A DNA stretch of 51,321 bases from a virus (Duplodnaviria; Caudoviricetes): the IMG/VR virus record IMGVR_UViG_3300021517_000001, positions 1-51,321 of that record; one strand, written 5' to 3'. Shown piece by piece: positions 3,701 to 33,624 of the stretch. The notes beneath the pieces are model-generated. The model searched no databases, was not told where the DNA came from, and worked only from the letters and a program-made list of their open reading frames with translations. The position numbers were made by a program, and so were the translations under genes. Every line of letters begins with the position of its first letter. Position 1 is the first letter of the stretch.

Positions 3701-4457
3701 CTTCAGGTACGTTTGTAATCGGCTGCCACACCCAGTCACCGGACGACACAAAAGTCTTGTGAGCGTTCGTCGCGCCCTTAAAGGCTTTCCAGTCTGCTCG
3801 AGCCTTGTCCAACGTAGCGTCATCAACCACGGTCTTGGCGATCAACATGCCGTCCGGGCGGGCACCGTTGAAAAAGAACGAAGACGCGAACCGGATAATG
3901 TTGGCCTCAGTCGCGACTGGAGAGATCGCAACTTCGAAAGGCGACTTGCCTGAGGCTTGTCGGTTAGGGTTCCATGCAGGAATGTGCACGAGCTGTTCAG
4001 GCTGGAGAATACTATACTGATATCGGTAGAATAAAATCTTCCCGGTATTGTAGTCATACTCGGGATCTACATCTTCGGGGTGCAGCCACTGCAGGCCGGT
4101 TAAGAACCCGTGATCGTTCGGAACCTTTTTAAAATACGCTGCGCCCCAAATGTTCATCGCAACTTCGGCGTGCCAGAGCAGCTCAGGAGAGTTTGAAATA
4201 AAGAAGTCCAGCGGATGCCAATCACCCGGCAAATCGCGATGCCGTGAGTTCTTCACAGAGATCGGAATCTGCGACAATGTGTTCGCCCGAAAGTTAATGC
4301 AAGCAAACGCAGTTGCCGACACGGAGTACAGCCGCGTAGCCTCATGATCGGAAATCTCCCCCGCGCCGTTAATTGCCTGGCGCCAAGAGGATTCAAGAGA
4401 CCGTTTATATTCTGAGGGGCTGTAGATCTCCTCACCGACGGTGTAAAAGATCGTCAT
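693..4457 (-). CDS. Portal protein (HK97-type) fused to degenerate 2H-phosphoesterase-like, MuF minor head and C-terminal ADP-ribosyltransferase-like domains
   Basis: Portal: FFFNGARPDGML, ICVTFEVNPALIG, TINELREAQGWEP. MuF: RARVIAQTES..WITVRDERVCPVC..AHPRCRC. ART-like: VYRGV..GNGTY..YA..GYDAI..NEYIILN. Likely start MTIFY at 4457. Confidence 0.85.
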   Translation of the reverse strand: MTIFYTVGEEIYSPSEYKRSLESSWRQAINGAGEISDHEATRLYSVSATAFACINFRANTLSQIPISVKNSRHRDLPGDWHPLDFFISNSPELLWHAEVAMNIWGAAYFKKVPNDHGFLTGLQWLHPEDVDPEYDYNTGKILFYRYQYSILQPEQLVHIPAWNPNRQASGKSPFEVAISPVATEANIIRFASSFFFNGARPDGMLIAKTVVDDATLDKARADWKAFKGATNAHKTFVSSGDWVWQPITNVPEGLAMVDLKAEVRRDICVTFEVNPALIGAGDVSDPLSANSTRESIKRSHIQDVTLPRLNYILDKLNTQWAWRDFTEKKLYTLVPDLKKVPALSNLTADRITSASQMLASPGLADYNEARELIGLEPRERFYLQTPPDPLLAMFDRGAMTINELREAQGWEPFFGANGDVVIISNTPVPVDKINEFASLLAEHGSMPSPQPPGFPAFQLARSLITKPEHPGKDETEVPANVSTTHFPVIPQLGAGTPLRSARTSGALSIYSPLPGAQVIKYAKRSIATELAQQDIVDIDWLEDIYWHVPIITSTGSISAADAGSIIRELSLDEAFRVSLRMKHAEIVDGTLIIRFHPSQFFRVLRASIFVSMADFGISEQDEDAYLVLGFTTLEDTLSLPPFIELDWPVTLNDYTLAYDGVEIHTWTARAASGAQVRELRNWKTKVDRKGPKAVFSPVTLQDTPVARALDWGLRSNLPSAALFDNAFKYLRGVDFSNPEEAATPDEYAQYWDRYDQISAELGTDWFGYMQYIWSKTEGRVSGGFSADQIEDILEQAEDALASEWVGTMDAPGPLLQLTLAGMAAGNQALINNIPADYRSIIRATVVESGWDEMSQEAFDFAQQYSYQLIRGLNATTRQQVQRAVSAWVESDQPLTELQRSLNAIFNNPERARVIAQTESARVYNKGAQQRWLDVGVKRAIWITVRDERVCPVCEPRDGSVGIIGEGWNGRDQPAHPRCRCFSRPDISSVGEEVKPGEGQTPLEQGYDETSIEIERPEVEEINVEELAAQIAATYRPSSLRGVSEYSVSRQPVVLPSVTGEDTILRQMFDENPEASSTPAVVTRGQLDALISGRGWTEVYRGVTSEDHAEQYRTGDVYGSRGAFGNGTYVAAVSGGRTVDDVIRSVTPYAGSGGAIIRMAVNPNARVISLNELRVLYRQRVLEIQYRAQGADPGLQRRAANEIQVISDLGRLALAEGYDAIKVDYTNEYIILNRTAVAVDSGNYLRGVDNAESPR

Positions 4458-6136
4458 CACCACACCTCCGTAGAGGGGGTTGCTCCGAGTACCAGCGTGT
4501 GACACAAAGCAAGCACAAAGCTGTACGCAAGATCGTCATGATCTCCCGAGGGAGCCGAGAGCGAGCTGCCTTCAATTGCTGCGATCTGAGACATCGTTGC
4601 CTGCGTGTGAATTTTACACATACGGTCCCTGAAGACATCGGCTGCGAGTGACCATGCGAGGGGTTTGGTGGCTGAATTCGTTAGCCACCCCGGTTTGCCG
4701 TCCCTGCCGGGCAAAAGACGTGCAAAGATAGATTGCTCCAAGACCAGGATTACCGCATGGCCATGATTGTTCCTTTCCACCATGACCTGAGCGTTATTGA
4801 AATAGTCGCTGAGGGTCGCGAGATATTGTGCAAAAGCTGAAGGTTGAAACTTCCCTCTGAGAGATGCCACTTCCTCGAGGGTATCTTTTCGAAGCACGGT
4901 CGCCGCGCTGTCATCGCTGGTAGGATTGCCTTCGGCGGGGTCGGCTCCGATGATGTACTTCACTCCCGGCTCGGGCAGGAAGTACACTCTTAGGCTTGGA
5001 ATAGTCGGCAGCATGTAATCAGCTCCCGGCTCTTGCACAATCTTGCCCAAGCGCTCGTAACAAGCATCGATCCACTCGGCCGGAATGCGCTTATCCGCTG
5101 ACTTAGCAGACAAGGCCTGCTCCGGGGTTTCTGGATACATCTCGTGCAGCTCGTCGAGCGCCCCTGTGCGCGCTTTAATCGATTCGGCCAACTCACGGTA
5201 CCAGGCTTCAGTCCTTAAGGGGTGTGCGTGCCAGGGAATGAACACGGTCGCAAATTTGTGCTTGCCTTCTTTGGCGGCCTCGGCCTCGGCCTTGTAAAGC
5301 ATCTTGAACCCGCTGTTCGGCTTGCGCTTGTCCGGTCGGCCGAGAATTACTAGTCGACCTCCCATTTCAATTGTGGGGCGGACCGACACCAATAGCTTAT
5401 CAAAGTCGGCAATAAAATCTGCCTCATCGATGATTGCGTATGTCGCTGTGTAAGTATCACCGCCCGTGGTCGGAAACGCCCGCACAGTCGATTCATTAGA
5501 CAACGTGAACTGATGCGTGTTGCTCTCGATGATTTTCTTGGCTTGCAGCCATCGGGGCAGACGCCAATACATTCCCTTCAACCGGTCATCCAGCAAGTGT
5601 ACTGCTTCGTCGTCACGTCGACTAAAGATAAGTACCTGAGCGATCGGGCGGAAAAGAATCTCGTGAATCGCGTCTGCGATTACTAGCCAGGAGAACCCGA
5701 CCTGCCTTGCTTTCAGTCCGAGGCACAGCTGATTGCGGTCGAGAACGTCAAGCACCTCGGCTTGTGTGGGCCAAAGACGGAAAGGAATCCAATCACGTCG
5801 AACGGAATCTTGAATCTTGCAGTAGGTCTGAACGAAGTAGTTTTTGCTAAGGCCGCAAACAAAGACCTCCTGAGAATAAGCATCCCAGGAGTCGAATTGT
5901 TCGAATAGAGTGTCCTGATCGAACCCGTACCGGTATGTCGCTTCTAGCAACACCTGGTCATGCGTCGGGATCGGGGAGAGCTCCGTCTTCGTTTGCGCGC
6001 TTACCACGTTCAACATCTCCCAGCTTGCGGAACAGTCCCGCAAATGCATCCACGGCGCTTTCGATCTGCCCCTGATCGCCTTCCTTAACCACCTCCACCG
6101 CGGAGCGGCCGTATTCCCTCGGGTGGCGTCTTTCAA
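4457..6136 (-). CDS. terL: Terminase large subunit
   Basis: Walker A LKARQVGFS, Walker B AIIDEADF, nuclease motifs IGADPAEG and HDDL. True start probably near 6013. Confidence 0.93.
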   Translation of the reverse strand: MKDATRGNTAAPRWRWLRKAIRGRSKAPWMHLRDCSASWEMLNVVSAQTKTELSPIPTHDQVLLEATYRYGFDQDTLFEQFDSWDAYSQEVFVCGLSKNYFVQTYCKIQDSVRRDWIPFRLWPTQAEVLDVLDRNQLCLGLKARQVGFSWLVIADAIHEILFRPIAQVLIFSRRDDEAVHLLDDRLKGMYWRLPRWLQAKKIIESNTHQFTLSNESTVRAFPTTGGDTYTATYAIIDEADFIADFDKLLVSVRPTIEMGGRLVILGRPDKRKPNSGFKMLYKAEAEAAKEGKHKFATVFIPWHAHPLRTEAWYRELAESIKARTGALDELHEMYPETPEQALSAKSADKRIPAEWIDACYERLGKIVQEPGADYMLPTIPSLRVYFLPEPGVKYIIGADPAEGNPTSDDSAATVLRKDTLEEVASLRGKFQPSAFAQYLATLSDYFNNAQVMVERNNHGHAVILVLEQSIFARLLPGRDGKPGWLTNSATKPLAWSLAADVFRDRMCKIHTQATMSQIAAIEGSSLSAPSGDHDDLAYSFVLALCHTLVLGATPSTEVW

Positions 6137-14491: not shown

Positions 14492-14538
14492 ATTATACCC
14501 ACAATACCTAGCCAAGGTCAACCGGGTATTGTGGGTAT
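14492..14538 (-). promoter_or_regulatory. Promoter TTGACC-18-TATAAT overlapped by a 14-bp perfect inverted repeat (operator-like)
   Basis: ATACCCACAATACC (14495-14508), 16-bp spacer, GGTATTGTGGGTAT (14525-14538). Confidence 0.7.
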
Positions 14539-14562: not shown

Positions 14563-16989
14563 TTACTGCTTTTGAGAGCTTCTGATCTGTGTTCTCTTTG
14601 ACATCTCATCGTAAGAGCAGGGGCCAGTAAGCTCGATGTGCGCGTGCTGGTCGTTTACATCCCAAGCAGGAACCCAGCTATCGCTTTCCGAGTGCCAGTA
14701 CCATTGGGTCTCTTGCACGGGGCTCACGTCGGCCCAATTGGGTCCGATCTCTATCTCGGCCTTGATCGGGACGTTGATGTCTAAGGGGAGCCGATTCTCC
14801 ATGCAGTTATAGACCAGGTCAACGACTTCCGGGAGCTCTTCGATCTTTACCACCAGGTCGATTTCATCATGCACTGTGATGACGATGCGTGTTAAAAGTT
14901 CCCGCGCGAGGAGTTCGCTGTGCAGGTGGATCAGAGCATTTAGCGTGATGTCCGAGGCCGTTGACTGAATCGGGAAGTTCAAAGCCTGTCGCTGTGCTTC
15001 ACCTCGGGTCGATTGGTGAATGAAGGGCCACCGGCGGATCCTGCCTAGGGGAGTAGACAGCTCTTGCTTTGACAGTACGTCACGCCTCTGACCTGCCATC
15101 CAGTCTCGAAGGCGGCTGAACTCGTTCAGGTAGTTGTCAATGAACTCCTGAGCCATCTGTTCAGTCCAATGGTACTGCCGAAGCTCTCGACCGTATGCGA
15201 TCGAAAACGCTCCGCGACCGTAAAGCACCCCGAAGTCCACGAACTTGGCCGCGTAGCGTTGCTTCTTAGAAACATCGTTGGGGTCAATTTGGAACATCGC
15301 CGCTGCCACTTCGCTGTGAATATCCCGCTCATCGATGAAGGCCTGGATCATGTTCGAGTCTTGACTCAGGTAAGCCGCCACGCGCAGCTCGAGCTGAGAG
15401 TAATCTGCCTTCATCCAAACATATCCCGGGGGCGGCACGAAGGCTCTTCGGATAGCCGGACCTGCCATTTGAGGGATGGTTTGAAGCGCGGGGTCATTGC
15501 AGCTCAGTCTGCCTGTAGATGTGCCGGCCAGGTTGAAAGACGCGTGCACGCTGTTCGTCAGGTCGGTCAGAGCGAGCAGTCCGTCGACGTAAGTACCGAG
15601 GATCTTTTTGCGGCCCCGGAAGTCCTCAACCAGGCCCGCGAGGTCAGCAGCCGGCGTGTTGGGCATCTCTGTCTGCACCCAGGCGAGCATGTCCTTGTCC
15701 GTGGTGCGGGACGGATACGGGATACCGAGCTTGTCATAGAACACCTCGGCCAGCTGCTTGGGGGAGCCTGGATTGAAAGAAGCTAGCTCAACCAGGTTTC
15801 GAATGTCCTCCAGAACGTCTTCGATCTCATCCCGGATCTGCATACCGTAGTCAGTGAGGTACCCTACGTCGATCAGCGTTCCGTTGCGTTCAATGTCGGC
15901 CAGAGCGATCGTCGCCGGGAAGAGCAGTGTGTCCAGCACCTGACGCAGCGAAGCCGGCTCTTCTTCAAGCTCTTGCCTCAGATCATAATACAGCCGCGCG
16001 GTGCACCACAGATCGACCCCAAGGTAAGTATAGAGCGGCCCCCAGTCCCTCTGATCAGCAGGCTTGCTCCAAAACGCTTCGAAGTCGAATTTGTAATCTG
16101 TGAGGTCATACCTCACCCGGGCGATCGTCTTCAGACCGTGAGGAGACAGCCTGTCCGCAATCGGCCTCTCATCGAGGACGTAGTTCATCAGCAGTGTGTC
16201 GGCCACGTTCCGCACAGGGGTCCGCATCTTCAACCACTCGGCCAGGAACTGCAGATCGAACTTGGCGTTGTGAAAGACTACCGGCCCGAAGTAATCGCGG
16301 AAGAAATCTTTCACGCAGTATCGCACGACCTCGTTCTTCACCAGGTGCCAGGGGATGATCACAACCTCTCCCCCGTCAAGCTCTGGATATAAAGCCCCGA
16401 ACCCGATCGCTTCAATCTCATGCTCTTTGACCCTAAGACCCGAGGTCTCCAAGTCGCATGAGATAAATGAGGCTTTGCTCAGCCGGCACAGAGCGCTGCG
16501 CAGTTCTTCGGGGTCATCGCAGATAGTGTACCAGACCGTTGGGGGTTCCATCGGAGCGTCAATCCGGGCCAGCTTAGAAATGTCAGCCACGAGGTCCCTA
16601 AAGCTGTCGGGCTCTTTCATCACTTGGTATGCCGAAAACGTGGGGATGGCTACTCCGAAGAGGTCGTCAGCTAGCTTTAGCTTGATTGCTCGGCCGCGCT
16701 CTTTGAAGATGTTCCCGAGTTTGTTTTGCTTGTACACCGCGGCCAGGGATGCAGGCCCCATTAACAGCACTTTTTGCGGCTTGTGCTGGGCCAGGATTCG
16801 AGCAACGTTTCGACCCGCTACTGCCATGTCCGCATCAGACGGCTTGCCGCTAGTTACTGTGTGAGGCACAGCATACTCGAAGATAACCTCGTCTAGGTTG
16901 AACCCGCACGCTTTCAAGCACCGCTGTACTAAAGTGCTCTGATCAGTCTGCCTCTTAATCGGCCATTCCTGGATCACTAGGGTAGTCAT
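14563..16989 (-). CDS. polA: Family A DNA polymerase with N-terminal UDG-like domain and 3'-5' exonuclease
   Basis: ExoI CDLETSGL, ExoII FHNAKFDL, ExoIII YLGVD; motif A ADYSQLELR, motif B RYAAKFVDFGVLYG, motif C VHDEI; N-terminal UDG-like KPQKVLLMG..IPTFS. Confidence 0.95.
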   Translation of the reverse strand: MTTLVIQEWPIKRQTDQSTLVQRCLKACGFNLDEVIFEYAVPHTVTSGKPSDADMAVAGRNVARILAQHKPQKVLLMGPASLAAVYKQNKLGNIFKERGRAIKLKLADDLFGVAIPTFSAYQVMKEPDSFRDLVADISKLARIDAPMEPPTVWYTICDDPEELRSALCRLSKASFISCDLETSGLRVKEHEIEAIGFGALYPELDGGEVVIIPWHLVKNEVVRYCVKDFFRDYFGPVVFHNAKFDLQFLAEWLKMRTPVRNVADTLLMNYVLDERPIADRLSPHGLKTIARVRYDLTDYKFDFEAFWSKPADQRDWGPLYTYLGVDLWCTARLYYDLRQELEEEPASLRQVLDTLLFPATIALADIERNGTLIDVGYLTDYGMQIRDEIEDVLEDIRNLVELASFNPGSPKQLAEVFYDKLGIPYPSRTTDKDMLAWVQTEMPNTPAADLAGLVEDFRGRKKILGTYVDGLLALTDLTNSVHASFNLAGTSTGRLSCNDPALQTIPQMAGPAIRRAFVPPPGYVWMKADYSQLELRVAAYLSQDSNMIQAFIDERDIHSEVAAAMFQIDPNDVSKKQRYAAKFVDFGVLYGRGAFSIAYGRELRQYHWTEQMAQEFIDNYLNEFSRLRDWMAGQRRDVLSKQELSTPLGRIRRWPFIHQSTRGEAQRQALNFPIQSTASDITLNALIHLHSELLARELLTRIVITVHDEIDLVVKIEELPEVVDLVYNCMENRLPLDINVPIKAEIEIGPNWADVSPVQETQWYWHSESDSWVPAWDVNDQHAHIELTGPCSYDEMSKRTQIRSSQKQ

Positions 16990-17801
16990 AGATCCATCCA
17001 GTTGGGCTGAATTCGGTGCATCACTGAACCGATATTGTACTGAGCGAGGTGCTTTTCATCCGCGGTCATTGTGCGGGTAAAGTAATCTTCAGGCCTTCCC
17101 GGGTTCTCGGGAGAAGCCCCGTAGCGCCTTGGAATCTTAACCCCGGCCATTGCATAGGTGAACGGCTTGACTGAGTCGACGGAGCGAATCCAAGGAAAGC
17201 GAAGAGCCGCCTGGCTGAGAGACACCCAATCAGAACTCATGCCCAGCAAGTGAACGTCCATGCGAGGCAGTAGCGCTTTCATCGGAGCTACGAACCTCTC
17301 AATGAGGTTGACCCGACCGCCTGGCCAGCTGTCGTAGACCTTTGATACCCCCACTGTGAAGGGGCGGTTTTCAAACATCTGATGATGCGCCTGCACGAGG
17401 ATGTTAAGAGCCTTGCCCCACCCGTAGATGGTCTCTGCTTGAGGTACAAGCATCAGGCGAATATCGTTGGCCCACGGAGAGCTCATTGCTCGAGACAGGG
17501 CTAGCTCTTCCATGCAGCTCAAGCTAAGGTCTATCGACTCGTCCATCTTCTGCATGACATCTGGGATGACCATTTCAGAGGCGTTGATGCTTACGGCCGC
17601 ATCGAGCAAAGCCCGGACATCGTTTGCTCCCTCGCCTAACTCGAAAGCCGAATTGTCCAGAGTGATGTAAGCAAATAACCCTGTGCGCGCGTAATGGTCT
17701 CGGTACTCATCGTTGCTCAGCAGGTGGTAAAGCGCCAAGTGGTACTCTCCACCGGCGTAGTCACGGAGATGCGGGACGGGGCAGATCAATCCTAATTTCA
17801 T
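16986..17801 (-). CDS. TGT/DpdA-like TIM-barrel protein (candidate 7-deazaguanine transglycosylase)
   Basis: ITLDNSAFELG, VIPDVM, VHLLG and IRSVDS motifs match the TGT-fold pattern; lies in the que cluster. Confidence 0.65.
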   Translation of the reverse strand: MKLGLICPVPHLRDYAGGEYHLALYHLLSNDEYRDHYARTGLFAYITLDNSAFELGEGANDVRALLDAAVSINASEMVIPDVMQKMDESIDLSLSCMEELALSRAMSSPWANDIRLMLVPQAETIYGWGKALNILVQAHHQMFENRPFTVGVSKVYDSWPGGRVNLIERFVAPMKALLPRMDVHLLGMSSDWVSLSQAALRFPWIRSVDSVKPFTYAMAGVKIPRRYGASPENPGRPEDYFTRTMTADEKHLAQYNIGSVMHRIQPNWMDL

Positions 17802-18159
17802 TGGGTTGCTCCCTCGTGAACCTCTTGTAAGCCATTAGCAGGGTGATGTACCCAAGAAGGTCCTGCCATGAGTCATCCAGCGACTCAAAGTTAGCAGACT
17901 CTCCCCGACGAAGAAGGTTCTGAATGCGTCCGAGTTTGATCCCGATGAGCACCATGATGACTGTGTCGATGCTCGCGCCCGCAACAGAAGCTGCCGTTTC
18001 GAAGTTATTCCAGGCATGCCCAAAAGCTGAGTAGTCCCCGCCCTTCAGCACCAGCAGCTGCTCCATGTGAGCAATAGTCTGCACAATGTGCTCCGGGTTG
18101 AGCATCAGGTTTGCGAGCTCGTCTAGAACCTTTAAGATGTAGTCTGATCCCTGAACCAT
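17761..18159 (-). CDS. DUF1599 / nucleotide-modification-associated-domain-like protein
   Basis: KGGDYS..NF..KLGRI.NL..ESLDDSWQDLLGY pattern. Confidence 0.7.
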   Translation of the reverse strand: MVQGSDYILKVLDELANLMLNPEHIVQTIAHMEQLLVLKGGDYSAFGHAWNNFETAASVAGASIDTVIMVLIGIKLGRIQNLLRRGESANFESLDDSWQDLLGYITLLMAYKRFTREQPNEIRIDLPRPASP

Positions 18160-18172
18160 GATCGTTCTCCTG

Positions 18173-18196
18173 AGGGGAGGTTTTTACTCCTCCCCT
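18173..18196. other. Intergenic hairpin after queC
   Basis: AGGGGAGG...CCTCCCCT. Confidence 0.5.
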
Positions 18197-18209
18197 GGTG
18201 TTTACGAGA

Positions 18210-18983
18210 CTAGCGGTAAGCGGCCCCGTTTCGAGGGCTTGATTTCAGAAACCCCGGATTCGCACCGGTCGGCCAGGGAATCTCCTCAGCGTAAGGGATA
18301 GGGTCGATGTACCCCGCCGTCCGGAATGCTTCGATCCGCTCAACGCACGTCGCGCATTTGCCGCACGCGGGCTGCTCACCCTTGTAGCAAGAGTGGGTTA
18401 AAGCCAGCGGCGCGTTTACGACCGCAGCGCGCATGACGATGTCTGCCTTGCTGATGTGCACGTACGGTGCTTCTAAGAACACTTTCCCCGAAGTCGCGAC
18501 ATGGATTGCTTCCGTCATCGCATCGATGAATTCCGGCCGGCAGTCCGGGTAGTGATAGTTGTGAGCGTCATCCCCGTGCACAGCGACGTAGACCTTGCCT
18601 GCGTCGACAGTCAGGGCGTAAGTCACGGCCATCGCGATGAAGTTCATGTTGCGGTTCGGAACGACCGTGGGCTGAGCACCGTGACGAGCTGCCAGCTCTT
18701 GATACGATCCCAGCCCGATGTCTTCGATCGGAGCATCTGCATCGACCAGTGTGCTGCCCGCACCTGCAAAGATTCGAGGCAAGTCAATTCGGGTGTACAA
18801 CACACCAAAGTGCTCAGCGACGTCTTCAGCCGCCTTCAGCTCGACAGCATGCTTCTGCCCGTAGTTGAACCCAACTGCAAACACATTGCTTCGGCCGAAC
18901 AGAGACACTGCTTCAGTCAGCAGCGTGCAACTATCCATGCCCCCGGAAAAAGAGACGACTGCTCGGCGAAATGAAGGTACCAT
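18210..18983 (-). CDS. queC: 7-cyano-7-deazaguanine synthase
   Basis: SGGMDS, YGQKH, VPNRN, YPDCRPEF, SCY...CGKCATC. Confidence 0.96.
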   Translation of the reverse strand: MVPSFRRAVVSFSGGMDSCTLLTEAVSLFGRSNVFAVGFNYGQKHAVELKAAEDVAEHFGVLYTRIDLPRIFAGAGSTLVDADAPIEDIGLGSYQELAARHGAQPTVVPNRNMNFIAMAVTYALTVDAGKVYVAVHGDDAHNYHYPDCRPEFIDAMTEAIHVATSGKVFLEAPYVHISKADIVMRAAVVNAPLALTHSCYKGEQPACGKCATCVERIEAFRTAGYIDPIPYAEEIPWPTGANPGFLKSSPRNGAAYR

Positions 18984-18984
18984 G

Positions 18985-19596
18985 TTACTTGCCAGACCTC
19001 ATGTGAGTAATGGCCTCCGCACGGAGGGCCGCATCGGTTAAAAAGATCCCCCGCGAAGCAGAGGTGGTGGTGGAGGACTCATGCGCGTGCACCCCCCGGC
19101 TAGTCATGCACGTATGCATGACATCGTACAGCGTCACGATGACTCCCTGAGGCTCAAGCACTGACATGAGGCAATCAGCTACCTGCCAGGTGATTTGCTC
19201 CTGCAGCTGCAGTCGACGGGCGAAGATATCCACCACTCGGGCCAGCTTGCTCAAGCCGATGACGTACGTGCCCGGCAGGTATGCAATCGCAGCTTTACCT
19301 ATGAACGGGCTCATGTGGTGTGCGCAGGTTGAGTACAGTGGGATGTCTTTCACGACGACTAGGTCTCGCTCGTGCCCGTTGTTCGGAAACACCGTGAGCA
19401 CGTCTTTGGGATTCATTTGATATCCCTTGAACCACTCTTCGAGCATAGCTTTGGCTACCCGTCCGGGTGTATCCGTGAAGTTTGGATCGCTCAGGTCGAT
19501 TTCGAGAGCCATCAGGACGTCTTTGATCGCCAGCTCGATGCGAAGCCCTTTGCGTATCTCGTTATCGACGACAAGGATGTTTCTGTCGAATTTCAC
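18985..19596 (-). CDS. folE: GTP cyclohydrolase I
   Basis: TPGRVAK, STCAHHMSPF, GLSKLAR, RLQLQE, HTCMTSRG; likely GTG start at 19596. Confidence 0.95.
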   Translation of the reverse strand: MKFDRNILVVDNEIRKGLRIELAIKDVLMALEIDLSDPNFTDTPGRVAKAMLEEWFKGYQMNPKDVLTVFPNNGHERDLVVVKDIPLYSTCAHHMSPFIGKAAIAYLPGTYVIGLSKLARVVDIFARRLQLQEQITWQVADCLMSVLEPQGVIVTLYDVMHTCMTSRGVHAHESSTTTSASRGIFLTDAALRAEAITHMRSGK

Positions 19597-19597
19597 G

Positions 19598-20362
19598 TCA
19601 CACCCCCAACGCATGGCCCCAAAGCAGCACATGCTGCTGAGCGCCTACATTGATTTCCCACAGGGTCTGCTGGCCGAAAAAGCTCAGCGCAGTTTCAGTC
19701 AGCCACTTGTATCGACGCAGCACGTCCGTGGAGGTGTCCGTAGCTAGTGTCCCAGTCGACAGGTAGATCGGAGTGTTGCCGACCCAATACGCCCCCTTGG
19801 TGAGGATGTGATTGACGTAGTTTAAGTCCTCCTGATCGAACACAACAAACTTGAAGAATGTCCGCCCGATCAATTGCTCCCTCTGGATATTGATCATGAA
19901 CATTTTGACGGCTTCTAGCGGGGTCGATCGTCCCGCTGAAGGGGGCTTTGGAGAGACCACGATCAGATCGGCTTTGCCCATCCAGGCATTCCAAAACGTT
20001 CCCTGAGTTTCGACCGCTACACGGTTCCCGGTAACGTGGAACAGTCGCACCAGCTCAGACAGGTCCCACAAAGCTGGATTGCCTCCGCTAAAGACGACCC
20101 ACGGGTACCGACCGGGCAGAGCAAGTACCTTCTCGTGAATCTCCTCAGCAGTCATGTTGGGCAGCTTTCGCACAAGAGCCGGGTCGACCGCATGCATCGA
20201 ATCGCACCACAAGCACCTGTAGTCGCAGCCGCCGAAGCGAACGAAGTAACAGGGGCTTCCAGTGTTCGGTCCTTCTCCTTGAATCGTGGGGCCGAATATC
20301 TCTGCGACTTTAAAAGTCCCCGACTTCATAATGACGTCTTGCTGGGAAATCATTTCAGCCAT
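19598..20362 (-). CDS. queE: 7-carboxy-7-deazaguanine synthase (radical SAM)
   Basis: EIFGPTIQGEG, CDYRCLWCDS, SGGNP, VETQG, VSPK, QQH. Confidence 0.95.
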   Translation of the reverse strand: MAEMISQQDVIMKSGTFKVAEIFGPTIQGEGPNTGSPCYFVRFGGCDYRCLWCDSMHAVDPALVRKLPNMTAEEIHEKVLALPGRYPWVVFSGGNPALWDLSELVRLFHVTGNRVAVETQGTFWNAWMGKADLIVVSPKPPSAGRSTPLEAVKMFMINIQREQLIGRTFFKFVVFDQEDLNYVNHILTKGAYWVGNTPIYLSTGTLATDTSTDVLRRYKWLTETALSFFGQQTLWEINVGAQQHVLLWGHALGV

Positions 20363-21003
20363 GTGACTGTCGCGACCCCCGTTTCGGTCTCCCACACGCG
20401 GACGCTTTGCACCCACACGTGCTCATATGCCGGTTGTGCGCCCGCAAGAGCGTTCAGCCCCGTCACCATCTCGTCGAAGATCCATTGGGCAAGGTACTCG
20501 GCAGTCGTGACCGGGATGTCTAGTAGTGCGACCTTGCCAAAGCCCTTGTTTCGAAAGAAGCTTTCAACCCTGTCCTTCTTTTGCCATCGACCATCGACGA
20601 CTGCACTTCCGTGATCTTGATCGCCGTAAAAGTCGAAGCCGAAGAATCGATAATCGAAAGGATCAAAAGCGCCGAACCATTTGAGTGGAACGGTCCCCAG
20701 CAGCAGCGCATGGTCAAGCTTATTGTGAATCGCCATGTTGTAGATCTGCTTGAGGTCGGCAAAGTCCATGACCATGCCAGCAGCCGGATCGATCAAGTTC
20801 GGATCATCCGCAGCACCGCCGATGACGTTTCCTCCGACTTCAACTTCGACCTTGTAATTATGCCCGTGAAGGTTAGCACAAGGCCCCTCATGATGCGGCA
20901 GTTGGTGAGCAGCTGAGATTGCGCCGCAAACCTTGCTGATGGTTGTCGTTGTGTACGGCTCGAGCAGCCTTTGCTTGCGAGCCTCAAAGGTGTCTTCAAT
21001 CAT
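20350..21003 (-). CDS. queD: 6-carboxy-5,6,7,8-tetrahydropterin synthase
   Basis: AAHQL..C.NLHGHNY, GMVMDFADLK, LDH, TTAEYLA, VWETE. Confidence 0.92.
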   Translation of the reverse strand: MIEDTFEARKQRLLEPYTTTTISKVCGAISAAHQLPHHEGPCANLHGHNYKVEVEVGGNVIGGAADDPNLIDPAAGMVMDFADLKQIYNMAIHNKLDHALLLGTVPLKWFGAFDPFDYRFFGFDFYGDQDHGSAVVDGRWQKKDRVESFFRNKGFGKVALLDIPVTTAEYLAQWIFDEMVTGLNALAGAQPAYEHVWVQSVRVWETETGVATVTWLK

Positions 21004-21059: not shown

Positions 21060-21581
21060 CTAGAGCAGTGTCCGGCGCGCTTCGCCGTCCTCGGTCAAGA
21101 CTTCTTCCGGCTCGCCCGACGCGGTTTCGGTGTCTGACCAGGGGGGCGCGAACGTGTTAGCTTCGCTGTACTGCCCACTGCCCACCTCTGCATGAGCTTC
21201 GACGATGCGCTGTACCCGCGCGCGATCCTGACCCTGGTATTTTTCCAAGGTGGTTTGAATGCGCACAGGCAGGCCGATGACGCTGGGTTCCACCAGAGTG
21301 TTCTCTTCGTCCACGTCGAGCTCGATCACAGCATCCGAGCTGAAGCCGAGGGCGACGAACGTGTCTCTCAAGCGGAACAATGCATTGGGAGCCAGGCTGG
21401 TCATCATCCAGACCTTGCGGCCTTCGTGCTCGCCTTCGACGATCTGGAACTCCCAGTTCAAATACGGGTGGGTGCCAGTCTGCGACTGCCGCATTGTGAC
21501 GCCGGTGATGACCGCTTCATGCTCCCCTTCGGGAACGGTGTCTGATGGAATCTCCCCAAAGTTAACGGTGATACGAGCCAT
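21060..21581 (-). CDS. DUF669-like single-stranded DNA-binding protein
   Basis: VPEGEHEAVI, EFQIVEGEHEGRKVW, acidic C-terminal tail; follows the Sak4-like gene. Confidence 0.75.
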   Translation of the reverse strand: MARITVNFGEIPSDTVPEGEHEAVITGVTMRQSQTGTHPYLNWEFQIVEGEHEGRKVWMMTSLAPNALFRLRDTFVALGFSSDAVIELDVDEENTLVEPSVIGLPVRIQTTLEKYQGQDRARVQRIVEAHAEVGSGQYSEANTFAPPWSDTETASGEPEEVLTEDGEARRTLL

Positions 21582-21594
21582 GGTCGTGTGATCC

Positions 21595-22407
21595 TTACAC
21601 TTGTAGAAGGTCGAACAATTTAGTGACGGTGGGGTCTTCAAGATAGTCGGGTAAGCGCACGCCCCATGGAGTTCGAACCCCCGCGCGAACTCCGGGTGTG
21701 TTTTGCAGGAGCAGTTTGCGAACTACTTTGGCCGCCGGGAGTGCTGAGCCGGCGCCTGCGTTTTGCTGTGCCTTGGGTGAAATCCTTTCCTGCACCAAAA
21801 ATGTAGACACGTCAAACATCCCGACCACTTCCTCAGCCATCTGGCCGAACAGAGCTGGCTTGCGCACGGCTCCCTCTCGGGGCTCGTTCTCTGTCTTCGG
21901 CAGGGCTGTGAAGAAGCAATGCATGTCGAGCTTTACAATCGCTCGAAGGAATCGGCGCATCTGAACCATGGACTTACCATAGTCTGCCTGATACACCGTG
22001 AAGGGATCTTCCCGCTTCTGGCCTGCGTTGAGCTCAGCGTCGACGATCCAGAGCAGCGAGTTAACATGAGTCTCAGACAAGGAGTCAATTGCGATCGACC
22101 TGTAGTTGTGTTTCTCGTTAGCGAGATAGTCGTACACTAGATTAAAGTCCTCCCAGGTTTTCACCCGGTAGACCGTGCACTGATCCGCAGGCAAGCCATA
22201 CAGAGAAGTGCTTCCGCCTTCGAAGTCTACGACAACGATCGGGCAGGTGCGCTCATCTAGCGCAGCGCTCCCAACCAGCGTCGTCTTCCCGCTACGAGAC
22301 GCCCCAGTGATTAACACTTTGCGCCACTGTGATTGCTGAGCGGCTTGCACTCTATCTAGGAACGCGTGCTTGCCGTTGCTCATGTAAGGTGATTTCGTTG
22401 CCGCCAT
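21595..22407 (-). CDS. Sak4-like (AAA_24) ATPase / recombinase
   Basis: GASRSGKTT, DFEGG, IAIDSLSE, DYG. Confidence 0.85.
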   Translation of the reverse strand: MAATKSPYMSNGKHAFLDRVQAAQQSQWRKVLITGASRSGKTTLVGSAALDERTCPIVVVDFEGGSTSLYGLPADQCTVYRVKTWEDFNLVYDYLANEKHNYRSIAIDSLSETHVNSLLWIVDAELNAGQKREDPFTVYQADYGKSMVQMRRFLRAIVKLDMHCFFTALPKTENEPREGAVRKPALFGQMAEEVVGMFDVSTFLVQERISPKAQQNAGAGSALPAAKVVRKLLLQNTPGVRAGVRTPWGVRLPDYLEDPTVTKLFDLLQV

Positions 22408-22468
22408 CTGATTGCTCCTTGCGTCGAATGATTCCATTATAAACGGGATATCACAGCGAATCAACGCA

Positions 22469-27224: not shown

Positions 27225-28184
27225 CTAGAACATGTTCGCAAGCGTGTGGGCAGCCTTCTCGAGTTCCTCTTTTCCGCGCAAATCATATCGCCGCGTCGTC
27301 TCAGACAAAGCATGGCCAGCCAGTTGCTGCACCAAGAAAATATCCACGCCGTTGAGCAGAAGGCTCGTAATGAACGTTTTGCGCAGGTCGTGGGGCTTTA
27401 CATAATGAATGCCGGCAGCCAGACATCTGCGCTTGAGAACGTCCATGATTGTTTGTCCGGAGATCGGCTCTAGCTGGGGAAGCCAGTCAACGCGGACAAA
27501 TAACGGACCGGGAGCGACGCCTCGAACAGCAATCCACTGATCAACAATCTCTCGAGCCCGGGAGTTGATAAACAGCCACCTGTCCTTGTTGCCTTTGCCT
27601 TTAGCCAGGATCAACTCGTAGCCGTCGTTGTGGGGGACTAGGTCTTCTAAAAAGACACTGACCGTCTCTTCCCGACGAGCCCCCGTTGCAACCATAAATG
27701 AGATAAGCGCCTTGTCTCGGACGCCTCCAGCGCCTCCAGCGGCCTCGCAGGCATCTAACAGCTTCGTCAGTTCTGCGGCTTCCAGCGACCGGCCTTTAGG
27801 AAGGGTGACCCCAACCACCCACTCGAAATCCAGCCGACGATTCATCTCTTCGACTGAAATGAGCTCGAGGCGCCAGCATGCCTTAATGACGCCGCGCAGA
27901 CCTGCTAGGTACAGGTTCGCGGTTGAGTGAGCGTAGTCCTGCATGAGGACCGATCGAATCTTCAGAATGACAGGCAGCTTGAGCATGTGCCAGGGGAACG
28001 AGTAGATCTCAGCCAGGCGGACATCCTTAGTCTGCATGATGATCTTGAGCACCGCCAGCAACGCAAAGCGCATGGTCGATTGCGCCGTGGGGCTGAGAGT
28101 ATTCAAGTACATTGTGACGGGGTCAAATCCGTCAGGGAATTGGACGGGAGCGATGTCCACGTCTTGCGGGATGATAGTAGTCAC
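27225..28184 (-). CDS. Tyrosine recombinase/integrase
   Basis: Catalytic R (GARREE), K (KGKGNK), HxxR (HDLRK), H (AGH), Y (RRYD). Confidence 0.93.
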   Translation of the reverse strand: MTTIIPQDVDIAPVQFPDGFDPVTMYLNTLSPTAQSTMRFALLAVLKIIMQTKDVRLAEIYSFPWHMLKLPVILKIRSVLMQDYAHSTANLYLAGLRGVIKACWRLELISVEEMNRRLDFEWVVGVTLPKGRSLEAAELTKLLDACEAAGGAGGVRDKALISFMVATGARREETVSVFLEDLVPHNDGYELILAKGKGNKDRWLFINSRAREIVDQWIAVRGVAPGPLFVRVDWLPQLEPISGQTIMDVLKRRCLAAGIHYVKPHDLRKTFITSLLLNGVDIFLVQQLAGHALSETTRRYDLRGKEELEKAAHTLANMF

Positions 28185-31147: not shown

Positions 31148-31184
31148 GCAAATAAAAACCCGCAAGCTGTGGGTTTTTATTTGC
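31148..31184. terminator. Bidirectional intrinsic terminator
   Basis: GCAAATAAAAACCCGC-aagct-GTGGGTTTTTATTTGC between convergent genes. Confidence 0.85.
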
Positions 31185-31190
31185 CTGGAA

Positions 31191-31637
31191 TCAGCTCGCG
31201 CTGATGTATATTTTGCTGACCCTGTCAAGAGCTTTTCTTTCCAACGCCGGCTGCGTCGAAAGAATTACATCCGACAAAAACAACAAGGCTTCAGCTTTCA
31301 CGGCTTCCCGGCGGAATCGAATCGTCACCATGCAATCTTTCGTCGGGTCGATAGCCCTTACCTGATATCCTTGGCGGTGTAAGAACTTAGCCATCCGATG
31401 CAGCCGCTGATGCACTTCGGCCTGTTCTGTAGCGTTTAGGTCCGTCCACATTGTCGGCCGCGTCTGGATCGACGGAGCTTCTGTACCGGACCCACTCCCA
31501 GTCTCCCTCTCGAGACTGTTGCCAGTACCCTTCCATTTCTTCGGTAGCACAATCTTCATTGTAGTTGTCCTCATACCACTCGCCAAGAATCCACATACAA
31601 ACAACCTTTCATATCGATACTTAGAGGGCAAATGCAA
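31191..31637 (-). CDS. Hypothetical protein (start uncertain)
   Basis: ORF ending at the bidirectional terminator. Confidence 0.5.
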   Translation of the reverse strand: MHLPSKYRYERLFVCGFLASGMRTTTMKIVLPKKWKGTGNSLERETGSGSGTEAPSIQTRPTMWTDLNATEQAEVHQRLHRMAKFLHRQGYQVRAIDPTKDCMVTIRFRREAVKAEALLFLSDVILSTQPALERKALDRVSKIYISAS

Positions 31638-31638
31638 T

Positions 31639-31681
31639 TAAAAAGATCCCCTCAACGTGCTAAGTGCTCGAGAGGGGATCT
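31639..31681 (-). terminator. Intrinsic terminator
   Basis: AAAAAGATCCCCTC...GAGGGGATCT. Confidence 0.65.
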
Positions 31682-31685
31682 CTAA

Positions 31686-32201
31686 TTACCGCGCGGAACG
31701 GACTTGTGTCATCAAAGTAATCAGAGCAGCTTTCGCTTGATATACGGTGTCCCCGAGATACAAGGCCTCAGCCGACGCCGGATACACAGCTTCAGTCTGA
31801 GATGTGAAGGCAAGTTCTCGTTTGCCTCCCGGACCCCACGGATTGAACGCCGCAGTCGTTGCGTAGTACTTGCGCGTCCACGGATCGCACCGCACGGCAG
31901 AGAATCGGAAGTCGATGCCCTTTGCCTGAGCTTCGTGATAAATGCGCGCCAGCATCGTGGTCATTTTGCGCGCGCGCTCCCGGCTTACCTCATGAATCTG
32001 CTCGAGAACTTCGCACCCGAGATCAGTCACCGGGAAATGTTCCCGCTCGAGAGGATTCTCGATGGCCAGGCCTTTAGACTGCAGCCAGCGAAGGGTGCGA
32101 ACCGGCACTGCTGCTTGAGCTAGCCCGTAGTTGTACAAACGCATGAGAGCTACATACTGCTTGTCGTTTAGTTTGACATCGGTCGTGAATTCAGTTTGCA
32201 T
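31686..32201 (-). CDS. Hypothetical protein (possible winged-helix-like N-terminus)
   Basis: Start MQTEF with GGAGG SD and promoter motif at 32220-32240. Confidence 0.6.
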   Translation of the reverse strand: MQTEFTTDVKLNDKQYVALMRLYNYGLAQAAVPVRTLRWLQSKGLAIENPLEREHFPVTDLGCEVLEQIHEVSRERARKMTTMLARIYHEAQAKGIDFRFSAVRCDPWTRKYYATTAAFNPWGPGGKRELAFTSQTEAVYPASAEALYLGDTVYQAKAALITLMTQVRSAR

Positions 32202-32393
32202 TTTTGCCTCCGGGCATTGCCTTACTATAATAAAATTGTAGACTCCAAACCCAAGAAAAAGCACGAGGGGGAGGTCCGTCAGTTTCTTTCGAATCGCCCT
32301 TGATCTGCGAAATTTCTGTACGAGCACGATCGATAAGCAACCGAACAGAACGCGACTGCGCTTGCTAAATGTTTATTTAGAATACGCTGGCGG

Positions 32394-33207: not shown

Positions 33208-33208
33208 G

Positions 33209-33616: not shown

Positions 33617-33624
33617 GTCGCCTC

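What the first reader, a model, noticed from the sequence alone, without database searches (positions are those of the whole stretch)
14563..21003. 7-deazaguanine cluster coupled to DUF1599, a Zn-less TGT-like enzyme and a variant PolA: possible non-canonical (pre-replicative?) G-substitution system
Seen: contiguous queD-queE-folE-queC, then DUF1599-like, TGT-fold and polA genes whose ends overlap one another. No QueF, QueF-like or Gat-QueC is recognisable. Established: FolE/QueD/QueE/QueC make preQ0, and canonical phage DpdA exchanges it into DNA after replication to block restriction. Inference: coupling to a nucleotide-modification-associated helical protein, a polymerase with altered motifs and a distant MazG-like pyrophosphatase resembles pre-replicative substitution logic (make a modified dNTP, deplete the canonical one, incorporate with a dedicated polymerase), as in dZ phages. 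The simpler alternative is ordinary post-replicative dPreQ0 insertion.
Basis: partly seen in the sequence, partly recalled or inferred. Interest (0 to 1): 0.85.

Follow-up and report, generated by a model that had tools for sequence, protein, structure and literature searches.

The report
DpdA3-type 7-deazaguanine DNA modification module
This phage carries the genes to make the guanine analogue preQ0 and a compact DpdA3-type base-swapping enzyme beside its DNA polymerase, a known kind of anti-restriction DNA modification system whose exact mode of action is still open.

Summary
On the minus strand lie queD, queE, folE and queC, then a 132-aa helical protein, a 271-aa TGT-fold protein and polA.

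The TGT-fold protein is not an orphan. A profile of its family matches the DpdA3 proteins of all three reference phages, Cellulophaga phiST/phi19:2, Campylobacter CP220 and Flavobacterium immuto_2-6A. It matches nothing in the DpdA1, DpdA2 or DpdA4 reference phages. DpdA3 was described in 2023 and goes with complete G replacement (PMC10516641).

The arguments for a pre-replicative route mostly fail here:
- The complete 51-kb genome has no recognisable MazG, HD or nucleotide-kinase gene.
- PolA keeps every Klenow catalytic residue checked.
- Phage 9g DpdA1, reported to insert preQ0 into DNA, also lacks the zinc motif and also sits just upstream of polymerase genes.

Best reading: a new, minimal member of the DpdA3 system, predicted to give dPreQ0 DNA. 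How DpdA3 reaches full replacement is unresolved, and the three reference DpdA3 phages do carry kinase-like and pyrophosphatase or HD genes beside it. A nucleotide-level route therefore keeps about 0.18 probability.

The parts
20350..21003 (-). QueD (6-carboxy-tetrahydropterin synthase), 217 aa, with an insertion relative to the Pfam model
   Evidence: Pfam PTPS 1.8e-27; phrog_2389 QueD-like 2.2e-24. The CANLHGH motif (CxxxHGH) is present, so this is QueD and not the DpdL-type LxxxHRH (motif definition from PMC10516641).
19598..20416 (-). QueE (7-carboxy-7-deazaguanine synthase, radical SAM), up to 272 aa. The true start is probably an internal ATG.
   Evidence: Pfam Radical_SAM 2.8e-07; phrog_2076 QueE-like 9.2e-40; a CX3CX2C cluster is seen in the translation.
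18985..19632 (-). FolE (GTP cyclohydrolase I), 215 aa
   Evidence: Pfam GTP_cyclohydroI 1.6e-59; phrog_2197 1.5e-64.
18210..18983 (-). QueC (7-cyano-7-deazaguanine synthase), 257 aa, with no glutamine-amidotransferase domain
   Evidence: Pfam QueC 2.7e-53 over residues 7-223. The phrog_1550 match covers only the QueC part of that profile (145-364 of 418). SGGMDS and a C-terminal Cys cluster are seen in the translation.
17761..18159 (-). Small helical protein (P0002, 132 aa), a distant DUF1599/Nmad1-like protein of unknown function. It may be an accessory of DpdA3.
   Evidence: Pfam DUF1599 E=0.015, 16.1 bits, below the 25-bit cut-off; phrog_1485, unknown function, 1.5e-11. An HMM of a 13-member family of small ORFs lying 1-4 genes upstream of DpdA3-like genes (12 of the 13 at position 1 or 2) in viral contigs hits it at E=2.4e-5. 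Of 14 sequences scanned (that family plus P0002), 6 give sub-threshold DUF1599 matches. The Atlas feature score is 0.95 to clusters with DUF1599 in 15-33% of members, and structure TM is 0.51/0.81. K75, R78, D100 and Y104 are invariant in alignment A6.
16986..17801 (-). DpdA3-subfamily 7-deazaguanine transglycosylase (P0001, 271 aa): a compact TIM-barrel TGT fold without the Zn subdomain
   Evidence: No Pfam or PHROG hit. The 50%-identity representative library holds 1361 proteins at E<=1e-3. AF2 pLDDT 95.4. Foldseek PDB: all 50 listed hits are TGTs, best E 1e-6. BFVD hit 2 is a 259-aa Cellulophaga phiST protein, TM 0.71-0.74. The family profile A1 hits phi19:2/phiST DpdA3 at 4.7e-36, CP220 at 2.9e-17 and immuto_2-6A at 4.8e-28. 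D49, D81, H184, G187, R206, D209 and N256 are invariant in 85 of 85 sequences. No CxCxxC motif.
14563..16989 (-). Family-A DNA polymerase (P0003, 808 aa) with 3'-5' exonuclease, an N-terminal extension of about 150 aa and a C-terminal tail of about 55 aa
   Evidence: Pfam DNA_pol_A 2.3e-95 and exo1 1.5e-12. Klenow alignment E 5e-61 with motifs A, B and C and the exonuclease motifs conserved. The start overlaps the DpdA3 stop by 4 nt.
21060..22464 (-). Upstream replication/recombination genes of the same module: DUF669 SSB-like (21060-21641) and AAA_24/Sak4-like (21595-22464)
   Evidence: Pfam DUF669 1.3e-08 and AAA_24 8.7e-21; phrog_124 Sak4-like 2.4e-30.

Best explanation
This is a minimal DpdA3-type 7-deazaguanine DNA-modification module inside the replication operon of a complete 51-kb phage genome.

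Shown:
- FolE, QueD, QueE and QueC are the four enzymes that make preQ0 from GTP.
- The 271-aa protein is a member of the DpdA3 subfamily of TGT-fold transglycosylases.
- It keeps three invariant aspartates, D49, D81 and D209.

Inferred:
- These aspartates correspond to the general acid/base, the base-recognition residue and the nucleophile of TGT and bDpdA.
- DpdA3 swaps guanine in phage DNA for preQ0 by the double-displacement mechanism of the superfamily.
- Because the gene is translationally coupled to the replicative PolA, it acts on newly made DNA at or soon after replication.
- The virion DNA carries dPreQ0 (or dADG, if QueC or another enzyme stops at or reverts to the amide), probably at a high or complete level as in other DpdA3 phages. 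This blocks restriction.
- The small DUF1599-like protein is an accessory of unknown role.
For: DpdA3 membership:
- Profile A1 matches 3 of 3 reference DpdA3 phages: phi19:2/phiST 4.7e-36, CP220 2.9e-17 and immuto_2-6A, annotated 'DNA guanine transglycosylase, DpdA', 4.8e-28.
- It matches 0 of 3 DpdA1, DpdA2 and DpdA4 reference phages.
- The matched phi19:2 protein is 100% identical to the phiST protein. It occupies the position described for CGPG_00065 = DpdA3.
- BLASTP of P0001 gives 23.5% over 255 aa to the phiST-type protein (E 1.4e-9, against four subject sequences only) and 28.6% to Brevundimonas phage StAshley.

Fold.

Active site: D49, D81 and D209 are invariant in 85 of 85 sequences and conserved in all four reference proteins. 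In the model they sit at or just after strands 45-49, 76-78 and 207-210. D49-x3-F53 mirrors bDpdA D95-x3-F99 (PMC10164549, passages read).

Context: among 54 clusters of DpdA3-like loci, 41 have a que or folE gene within 8 genes upstream.

Literature:
- The minimal set FolE, QueD, QueE, QueC plus DpdA gives dPreQ0 (PMC6884629, passage read).
- DpdA3 phages are completely modified, and the authors propose post-replicative insertion (PMC10516641, Discussion read).

Other: the genome encodes no tRNA and no other TGT-like gene.
Against: - No DpdA3 has been shown to act on DNA. The published attempts to test DpdA3 in E. coli were reported as unsuccessful.
- DpdA3 lacks most of the Ins8 insertion and the Zn site. 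In bDpdA these make up 30% of the protein, and Phe265 within Ins8 is modelled near the DNA minor groove. Only 62 residues follow D209.
- Complete replacement of about a quarter of all bases by post-replicative base exchange would be unusual.
- The equivalence of D49, D81 and D209 to the TGT catalytic aspartates rests on order, spacing and predicted strand position, not on a superposition. An hhalign of A1 against a shallow DpdA1 alignment gave only 3.3% probability.
- The modification itself is unmeasured.
- Whether QueC completes the step to preQ0 cannot be read from sequence.
Confidence: 0.6

Rival explanations
1. Pre-replicative route. DpdA3 exchanges the base on a free deoxynucleotide (dGMP or dGTP), not on DNA. 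The product is phosphorylated to dPreQ0TP, and PolA incorporates it in place of dGTP.
For: - All three tested DpdA3 phages show 100% replacement (PMC10516641).
- A modified-dGTP route was proposed in print for Campylobacter phages (PMC6884629, Discussion passage).
- The ADG nucleoside was reported in the cytoplasm of infected cells (cited in PMC10516641).
- The published attempts to test DpdA3 in E. coli were reported as unsuccessful.
- The enzyme lacks the Ins8/Zn subdomain.
- In the reference phages DpdA3 is flanked by nucleotide-metabolism genes: MazG-like NTP pyrophosphohydrolase plus a PF13238 ATPase in phi19:2; an HD/P-loop fusion and a P-loop protein in CP220; an NTP pyrophosphohydrolase, a 'thymidylate kinase' and a 'phosphoribosyltransferase' in immuto_2-6A.
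- Among 124 unlabelled neighbours of metagenomic DpdA3-like genes there are 4 MazG, 3 dGTP_diPhyd_N and 1 dUTPase.
Against: - In this complete genome no MazG, MazG-like, HD or AAA_18-type kinase is recognisable. dGTP depletion and phosphorylation of the modified nucleotide would have to come from the host or from unrecognised genes.
- PolA has canonical catalytic motifs. Its motif-B variant is not shared by all DpdA3-linked PolAs.
- No TGT-fold enzyme is known to use a mononucleotide (my own knowledge).
- The zinc-less state and the adjacency to polymerase genes also occur with phage 9g DpdA1, which PMC10516641 says inserts preQ0 into DNA.
- 7-deaza-dGTP analogues are accepted by ordinary family-A polymerases (my own knowledge), so a dedicated polymerase is not diagnostic.
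Confidence: 0.18
2. DNA-level insertion, but partial and motif-specific as with DpdA1 or DpdA2. Only a fraction of guanines in a recognition sequence is replaced.
For: - Phage DpdA1 systems with the same gene order modify up to about 30% of G (PMC10516641; 9g layout).
- P0001 is only 23-29% identical to the DpdA3 proteins of phages with measured DNA, so efficiency may differ in this clade.
Against: All three DpdA3 phages measured so far are completely modified. P0001 groups with DpdA3 and not with DpdA1, DpdA2 or DpdA4 by profile.
Confidence: 0.12
3. The TGT-like enzyme targets tRNA (queuosine-type modification of host tRNA) or is inactive, and the que genes act as an auxiliary metabolic module.
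For: The fold is that of tRNA-guanine transglycosylases.
Against: - The phage has no tRNA genes.
- The protein lacks the Pfam TGT signature and the Zn subdomain.
- It belongs to a viral family whose reference members sit in phages with fully modified DNA.
- It is embedded in the replication operon.
- The catalytic aspartates are invariant.
Confidence: 0.03

Closest known systems
[quoted passage not shown] 2023, PMC10516641)
   Same: - The same transglycosylase subfamily by profile and by fold.
- All are about 260-270 aa and none has CxCxxC.
- All are co-encoded with FolE, QueD and QueE and lie near a DNA polymerase gene.
   Different: - This phage has the full preQ0 set (with QueC) but no QueF, DpdL or DpdN, so the predicted base is dPreQ0 rather than dDG, dADG or fdPreQ1.
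- It lacks the MazG or HD and P-loop kinase-like genes that flank DpdA3 in those phages (against 60, 61, 83, 84).
- It has a DUF1599-like small protein instead.
- Identity to those DpdA3 proteins is only about 23-24% where BLAST aligns them.
Enterobacteria phage 9g / Queuovirinae DpdA1 module
   Same: - The same module layout: AAA ATPase, DUF669, helicase, que genes, dpdA, then polymerase genes directly downstream. This holds in 15 of 15 related loci in which a DpdA1 ORF was called, out of 17 fetched.
- 9g DpdA1 also has no CxCxxC motif.
   Different: - The transglycosylase is of a different subfamily: profile A1 finds nothing in 9g.
- 9g has Gat-QueC and makes dG+, with about a quarter of G modified (PMC8265664, passage read).
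- The 9g polymerase subunits share no BLAST similarity with this PolA at E<=1e-3.
Bacterial DpdA/DpdB/DpdC (Salmonella Montevideo; PMC10164549)
   Same: TIM-barrel TGT fold, three active-site aspartates and a double-displacement base exchange of G for preQ0 in DNA.
   Different: - bDpdA carries the large Ins8 insertion pinned by a CXCX2CX22H Zn site and needs the DpdB ATPase.
- P0001 has neither the insertion nor the Zn site.
- No DpdB-like partner was identified here; this was not specifically searched.
   Same: Only the general idea of whole-base substitution linked to replication genes.
   Different: The defining parts were searched for and not found: no dNTP pyrophosphatase or HD triphosphohydrolase. 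There is also no nucleotide-level synthase of known type.

Membership tests
DpdA3 subfamily of DNA 7-deazaguanine transglycosylases | Sequence-profile relationship to the reference DpdA3 proteins (phiST CGPG_00065, CP220, immuto_2-6A) and not to DpdA1, DpdA2 or DpdA4 | tested here: met
   The A1 profile gives 4.7e-36 (phi19:2, protein identical to phiST), 2.9e-17 (CP220) and 4.8e-28 (immuto_2-6A). It has no hit in 9g, Rosebush or HVTV-1. A 47%-identical relative (P0006) finds phiST and immuto by tblastn.
DpdA3 subfamily of DNA 7-deazaguanine transglycosylases | TGT-type TIM-barrel fold | tested here: met
   AF2 pLDDT 95.4 and pTM 0.92. All 50 listed PDB hits are TGTs. The phiST 259-aa protein has TM 0.71-0.74.
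DpdA3 subfamily of DNA 7-deazaguanine transglycosylases | Three conserved active-site aspartates of the TGT/DpdA superfamily | tested here: met
   D49, D81 and D209 are invariant in 85 of 85 sequences and present in four reference proteins. They lie at the ends of predicted strands. Their one-to-one equivalence with bDpdA D95, D130 and D256 is inferred, not superposed.
DpdA3 subfamily of DNA 7-deazaguanine transglycosylases | Co-encoded 7-deazaguanine precursor pathway | tested here: met
   FolE, QueD, QueE and QueC are adjacent.
DpdA3 subfamily of DNA 7-deazaguanine transglycosylases | 7-deazaguanine present in virion DNA (complete replacement in the measured members) | not testable with these tools
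   Needs LC-MS/MS or native-DNA sequencing signal.
Canonical TGT / bacterial DpdA (Pfam PF01702) | Match to the Pfam TGT model | tested here: not met
   No Pfam hit for P0001 at E<=0.01. 0 of 85 family members match TGT at E<=1. The genome search with PF01702 is empty. Caveat: that genome search also missed the annotated DpdA of 9g, so its first-look filter is insensitive.
Canonical TGT / bacterial DpdA (Pfam PF01702) | Structural Zn site CXCX2C...H pinning the C-terminal insertion | tested here: not met
   P0001 has Cys only at positions 7 and 96. 0 of 85 family members and 0 of 4 reference DpdA3 proteins have CxCxxC.
Pre-replicative base-substitution systems (dZ-, hmC- or hmU-like logic) | Phage enzyme that removes the canonical dNTP (MazG, HD or dNTPase) | tested here: not met
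   PF03819, PF12643 and PF01966 give no match at E<=1 in the complete genome; the control genomes were positive.
Pre-replicative base-substitution systems (dZ-, hmC- or hmU-like logic) | Phage nucleotide kinase for the modified dNMP | tested here: not met
   PF13238 matches only the P-loop of the AAA_24 protein, below the cut-off. Walker-A-like strings occur only in AAA_24, the primase-helicase and an unknown 402-aa ORF. Several ORFs remain without any family.
Pre-replicative base-substitution systems (dZ-, hmC- or hmU-like logic) | Polymerase adapted to the modified dNTP | tested here: inconclusive
   The catalytic residues are canonical against Klenow. The motif-B residue before F762 varies among DpdA3-linked PolAs: N 12, D 11 and others 8 of 31. 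Substrate preference cannot be read from sequence.
DUF1599 / Nmad1 (PF07659), for the 132-aa protein | Pfam match above the gathering score | tested here: not met
   16.1 bits against a 25-bit cut-off, E=0.015.
DUF1599 / Nmad1 (PF07659), for the 132-aa protein | Distant relationship by other measures | tested here: inconclusive
   23 of the 30 nearest Atlas hits fall in the DUF1599-carrying set, with a top score of 0.95 and structure TM 0.51/0.81. Among the related small-ORF family plus P0002, 6 of 14 give sub-threshold DUF1599 hits.

The most novel reading that the evidence does not exclude
DpdA3 enzymes, including this one, may be the first TGT-fold transglycosylases that work on free deoxyguanine nucleotides rather than on DNA. 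The 7-deazaguanine would then enter the genome through the dNTP pool and the co-translated polymerase. This would explain the 100% replacement seen only with DpdA3, the loss of the Ins8/Zn subdomain, the unsuccessful E. coli tests of DpdA3, and the kinase-like and pyrophosphatase or HD genes that flank DpdA3 in phiST-type, CP220 and immuto phages. This phage would be the minimal version and would rely on host kinases.
Probability: 0.18. Interest if true: 0.85.

Novelty: new member of a known kind. Interest (0 to 1): 0.45.

Why it matters
7-Deazaguanine DNA protects phages from restriction. DpdA3 is the only subfamily linked to complete G replacement, and its substrate and mechanism have never been shown.

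This genome offers a compact seven-gene cassette: four preQ0 genes, one small helical protein, DpdA3 and PolA. It has no recognisable nucleotide-pool enzymes. That makes it a clean test bed for whether DpdA3 acts on DNA or on nucleotides, and for whether the small protein or the polymerase is needed.

The family is large, with 1361 representatives at 50% identity, and most are metagenomic. In the sampled clade the gene is usually fused in an operon to polA: 34 of 54 clusters have polA immediately downstream. The answer would therefore apply to many uncultured phages.

Tried and rejected
- Single-sequence AF2 of P0001 gave a useless model, pLDDT 42. It was replaced by the alignment-based model.
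- phmmer of P0001 and hmmsearch of profile A1 against PDB sequences found no TGT. Only fold comparison showed the relationship.
- Pfam scan of the 85 family members: 2 of 85 weakly match DUF6610, the DpdA4 family, with best E 0.0036. I took this as a sign of distant kinship only. Profile A1 finds nothing in HVTV-1, and PF20314 finds nothing in the window.
- The search for homologous proteins found only P0002 itself.
- A search for longer, fused forms of P0001 found none. The tool itself calls this weak evidence. The N-terminal extensions of P0090 and P0101 look like miscalled starts.
- Complex prediction on P0001 plus P0002 returned 'no answer'. It is not used as evidence either way.
- hhalign of A1 against a shallow alignment of 12 DpdA1 sequences gave 3.3% probability, aligning only the HLLG...DS region. 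It is too weak to map residues.
- The Atlas search of the 402-aa ORF downstream of PolA gave nothing usable.
- Fletchervirus NCTC12673, a phage with dI in place of dG, has no DpdA3-like gene by the A1 profile. The idea that DpdA3 also serves dI phages is dropped.
- I first read the conserved DpdA3-to-PolA adjacency as a sign of functional coupling. I downgraded this after seeing the same layout with DpdA1 in 9g and its relatives. Both samples are lineage-biased: the 80 DpdA3 loci were found with patterns from the closest relatives, and the 17 DpdA1 loci are all 9g relatives.
- Rows dropped: 6 of the 80 viral loci (L012, L013, L036, L037, L057, L075) had no DpdA3-like ORF under my simple ORF caller and were left out of the counts. 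2 of the 17 DpdA1 loci were dropped for the same reason.
- The promoter and terminator scan showed no more sites than shuffled sequence.
- Literature: three searches found no paper showing or testing a nucleotide-level 7-deazaguanine route, and 'DpdA3' occurs in one relevant paper only.
- Crippen et al. 2019 is not held. It is cited only through what PMC10516641 and PMC6884629 say of it.
- Supplementary files were not opened. The DpdA3 member list in Supplementary Data S1 of PMC10516641 may already include relatives such as StAshley.

Full report
**What is there.** The window is a complete virus record of 51,321 bp with direct terminal repeats and an estimated completeness of 100%. Between 21003 and 14563 the minus strand carries seven tightly packed ORFs.
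- Four are clear preQ0-pathway enzymes by Pfam and PHROGs: QueD (PTPS 1.8e-27), QueE (phrog_2076 9.2e-40), FolE (1.6e-59) and QueC (2.7e-53).
- QueD has the CxxxHGH motif of true QueD rather than the DpdL variant. QueC has SGGMDS and its C-terminal Cys cluster and no amidotransferase domain.
- No QueF exists. The only PF14489 match is the T-fold of FolE itself, below the cut-off.
- Upstream lie DUF669 and AAA_24/Sak4 genes, a resolvase, a helicase, an integrase and a primase-helicase. Portal and terminase genes lie at the other end.
- The promoter and terminator scan gives no more sites than shuffled sequence. The one strong promoter-like site (11 of 12) lies just after the polA stop.

**The TGT-like protein.**
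- P0001 (271 aa) has no Pfam or PHROG hit, no PDB sequence hit and one weak tblastn hit among 50,697 phage records. That hit is Brevundimonas phage StAshley, where the homologue also sits between QueC/QueD/QueE and a PolA.
- It is nevertheless a member of a large family: 1361 proteins at E<=1e-3 in the 50%-identity library, 43 of them at E<=1e-30.
- With an 85-sequence alignment (A1) AlphaFold gives pLDDT 95.4.
- Foldseek returns tRNA-guanine transglycosylases for all 50 listed PDB hits, best E 1e-6. In the viral library it returns a 259-aa Cellulophaga phiST protein at TM 0.71-0.74.
- Profile A1 then hits phi19:2 at 4.7e-36. That protein is 100% identical to the phiST protein. It lies where Hutinet et al. 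2023 place CGPG_00065 = DpdA3, between the MazG, DpdL and ATPase genes and the polymerase.
- A1 also hits CP220 (2.9e-17) and immuto_2-6A's annotated DpdA (4.8e-28). It finds nothing in 9g (DpdA1), Rosebush (DpdA2), HVTV-1 (DpdA4) or a Fletchervirus.
- P0001 is therefore a DpdA3-subfamily member, at 23-29% identity to the isolated-phage representatives.

**Active site and zinc.**
- D49, D81, H184, G187, R206, D209 and N256 are invariant in 85 of 85 sequences. They are conserved in the four reference proteins.
- The three aspartates sit at or just after predicted strands 45-49, 76-78 and 207-210.
- In bacterial DpdA, D95 is the acid/base, D130 reads the base and D256 is the nucleophile. F99 stacks on the base. 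A CXCX2CX22H zinc site pins a 128-residue insertion (Ins8) that follows D256 (PMC10164549, passages read).
- P0001 has D49-x3-F53, only 62 residues after D209, and cysteines only at 7 and 96. 0 of 85 family members and 0 of 4 reference DpdA3 proteins have CxCxxC.
- The zinc-less, compact state is real, but it is a trait of the whole subfamily. Phage 9g DpdA1 (317 aa) also lacks CxCxxC, and PMC10516641 says that DpdA1 inserts preQ0 into DNA. The trait is therefore not evidence for a non-DNA substrate.

**The small protein.**
- P0002 reaches only 16.1 bits on DUF1599 against a 25-bit cut-off.
- A family of small ORFs lying 1-4 genes upstream of DpdA3-like genes (12 of its 13 members at position 1 or 2) forms 13 of the neighbour clusters. 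Its HMM hits P0002 at 2.4e-5.
- Of 14 sequences scanned (that family plus P0002), 6 give sub-threshold DUF1599 matches.
- The Atlas places P0002 next to DUF1599-bearing clusters, with score 0.95 and TM 0.51/0.81.
- Its invariant residues are K75, R78, D100 and Y104. This is not the acidic metal-binding pattern that I recall for MazG enzymes, so I do not call it a pyrophosphatase.

**PolA.**
- Against Klenow (E 5e-61) the following are all conserved: motif A (DYSQLELR), the O-helix residues equivalent to R754, K758, F762 and Y766, motif C (VHDE), the R668 and Q849 equivalents, and the three exonuclease motifs. The Klenow numbering is recalled.
- The N-to-D change before F762 is one of several states among 31 DpdA3-linked PolAs: N 12, D 11, A 4, V 2, R 1, E 1. 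PALQTIP occurs only in the window, against PNLQN[IV]P in the other 22 of 23.
- The first 152 residues give only a sub-threshold UDG match, E 0.075.

**Context across phages.**
- Of 237 viral-contig relatives, the best 80 loci were fetched and 74 had a called DpdA3-like ORF.
- With the window and two isolate loci these make 54 clusters at 80% identity. PolA is immediately downstream on the same strand in 34, within four genes in 6 more and absent in 14. 41 clusters have a que or folE gene within 8 genes upstream.
- In the 34 adjacent pairs the ORFs overlap in 29 (ten by exactly 4 nt), abut in 1 and are 26-82 nt apart in 4.
- Among 124 unlabelled neighbours, Pfam finds QueF 4, MazG 4, DUF3310 4, dGTP_diPhyd_N 3, AAA_28 2, Vut_1 2 and dUTPase 1.
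- Control: phage 9g has the same order, with AAA ATPase, DUF669, helicase, que genes and DpdA1 followed directly by polymerase genes. So do 15 of 15 of its relatives with a called DpdA1 ORF. The adjacency is a feature of this replication module, not of DpdA3.

**Pre- or post-replicative.**
- For this genome the specific predictions of the dZ-like logic fail. There is no MazG, MazG-like or HD protein and no AAA_18-type kinase. There is no special polymerase signature.
- That paper also reports that attempts to test DpdA3 in E. coli were unsuccessful.
- An earlier paper allowed for a modified-dGTP route in Campylobacter phages (PMC6884629, passage read).
- All three reference DpdA3 phages place a kinase-like P-loop gene and an NTP pyrophosphohydrolase or HD gene beside DpdA3.
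- I therefore keep the nucleotide-level route at about 0.18.

**Verdict.** The object is a new, minimal, divergent member of the known DpdA3 7-deazaguanine system, and the predicted product is dPreQ0 DNA.

Noticed in passing
L092 (CP220 record 53542-56035); L005 (phi19:2 record 31172-33334); L095 (immuto_2-6A record 31931-36093): In all three reference DpdA3 phages the DpdA3 gene is flanked by nucleotide-metabolism genes. CP220 has an HD/P-loop fusion and a P-loop protein. phi19:2 has a MazG-like NTP pyrophosphohydrolase and a PF13238 ATPase. immuto_2-6A has a 'phosphoribosyltransferase', an NTP pyrophosphohydrolase and a 'thymidylate kinase'. These are the records' own annotations and I did not re-test them.
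   Followed up: partly
L097 3007-3960 (phage 9g DpdA1): The 317-aa DpdA1 of phage 9g has no CxCxxC motif either, so the canonical TGT/bDpdA zinc site seems to be missing from at least two phage DpdA subfamilies.
   Followed up: partly
window 16534-16989 and 14563-14730 (PolA residues 1-152 and about 754-808): PolA has an N-terminal extension of about 150 aa with only a sub-threshold UDG-superfamily match (E 0.075). It also has a C-terminal tail of about 55 aa beyond the Klenow alignment. DpdA3-linked PolAs in relatives are similarly long, about 760-930 aa.
   Followed up: partly
L010:1672-2433, L016:9196-9999, L021:9151-9906, L024:8813-9613, L034:9129-10016, L038:9150-9869, L040:8549-9283, L077:9300-9992: A family of ORFs of about 230-295 aa lies 1-3 genes upstream of DpdA3-like genes (6 of its 8 members directly upstream) in 8 clusters of related viral contigs. 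It is absent from the window. In the mixed 18-sequence set that included them (A4), 3 sequences weakly matched the CxxCxxCC (YkgJ-type) Pfam family, which I recall as the fold of the published DpdM. The tool does not show which members matched.
   Followed up: partly
neighbour ORFs of DpdA3-like genes in the viral-contig loci (alignment A5): Two neighbours match Vut_1 (PF02592, 3.5e-48), which I recall as the YhhQ-type queuosine-precursor transporter family. Two others match FolE2 (GCHY-1). Some relatives may therefore import precursors or use the alternative cyclohydrolase.
   Followed up: no
window 693-4505 (-): One 1270-aa ORF combines a portal region (residues about 48-395) with a MuF or minor-head-protein-like region (residues about 830-1045) by PHROGs.
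   Followed up: no
window 27225-28184 (-): A tyrosine-integrase-like gene (phrog_1, 5.8e-36) sits inside the replication region next to the primase-helicase. This suggests a temperate or integrative lifestyle.
   Followed up: no
window 14492-14521 (-): The best promoter-like site of the region (11 of 12 consensus positions) lies just downstream of the polA stop. It sits ahead of the unknown 160-aa and 402-aa ORFs, which overlap each other by 4 nt and have no family assignment.
   Followed up: no
The genome search with PF01702 on phage records: The genome-search tool found no PF01702 candidate even in phage 9g, whose DpdA is annotated as a queuosine tRNA-ribosyltransferase. Negative results of that first-look filter on divergent phage proteins should be read with care.
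   Followed up: no
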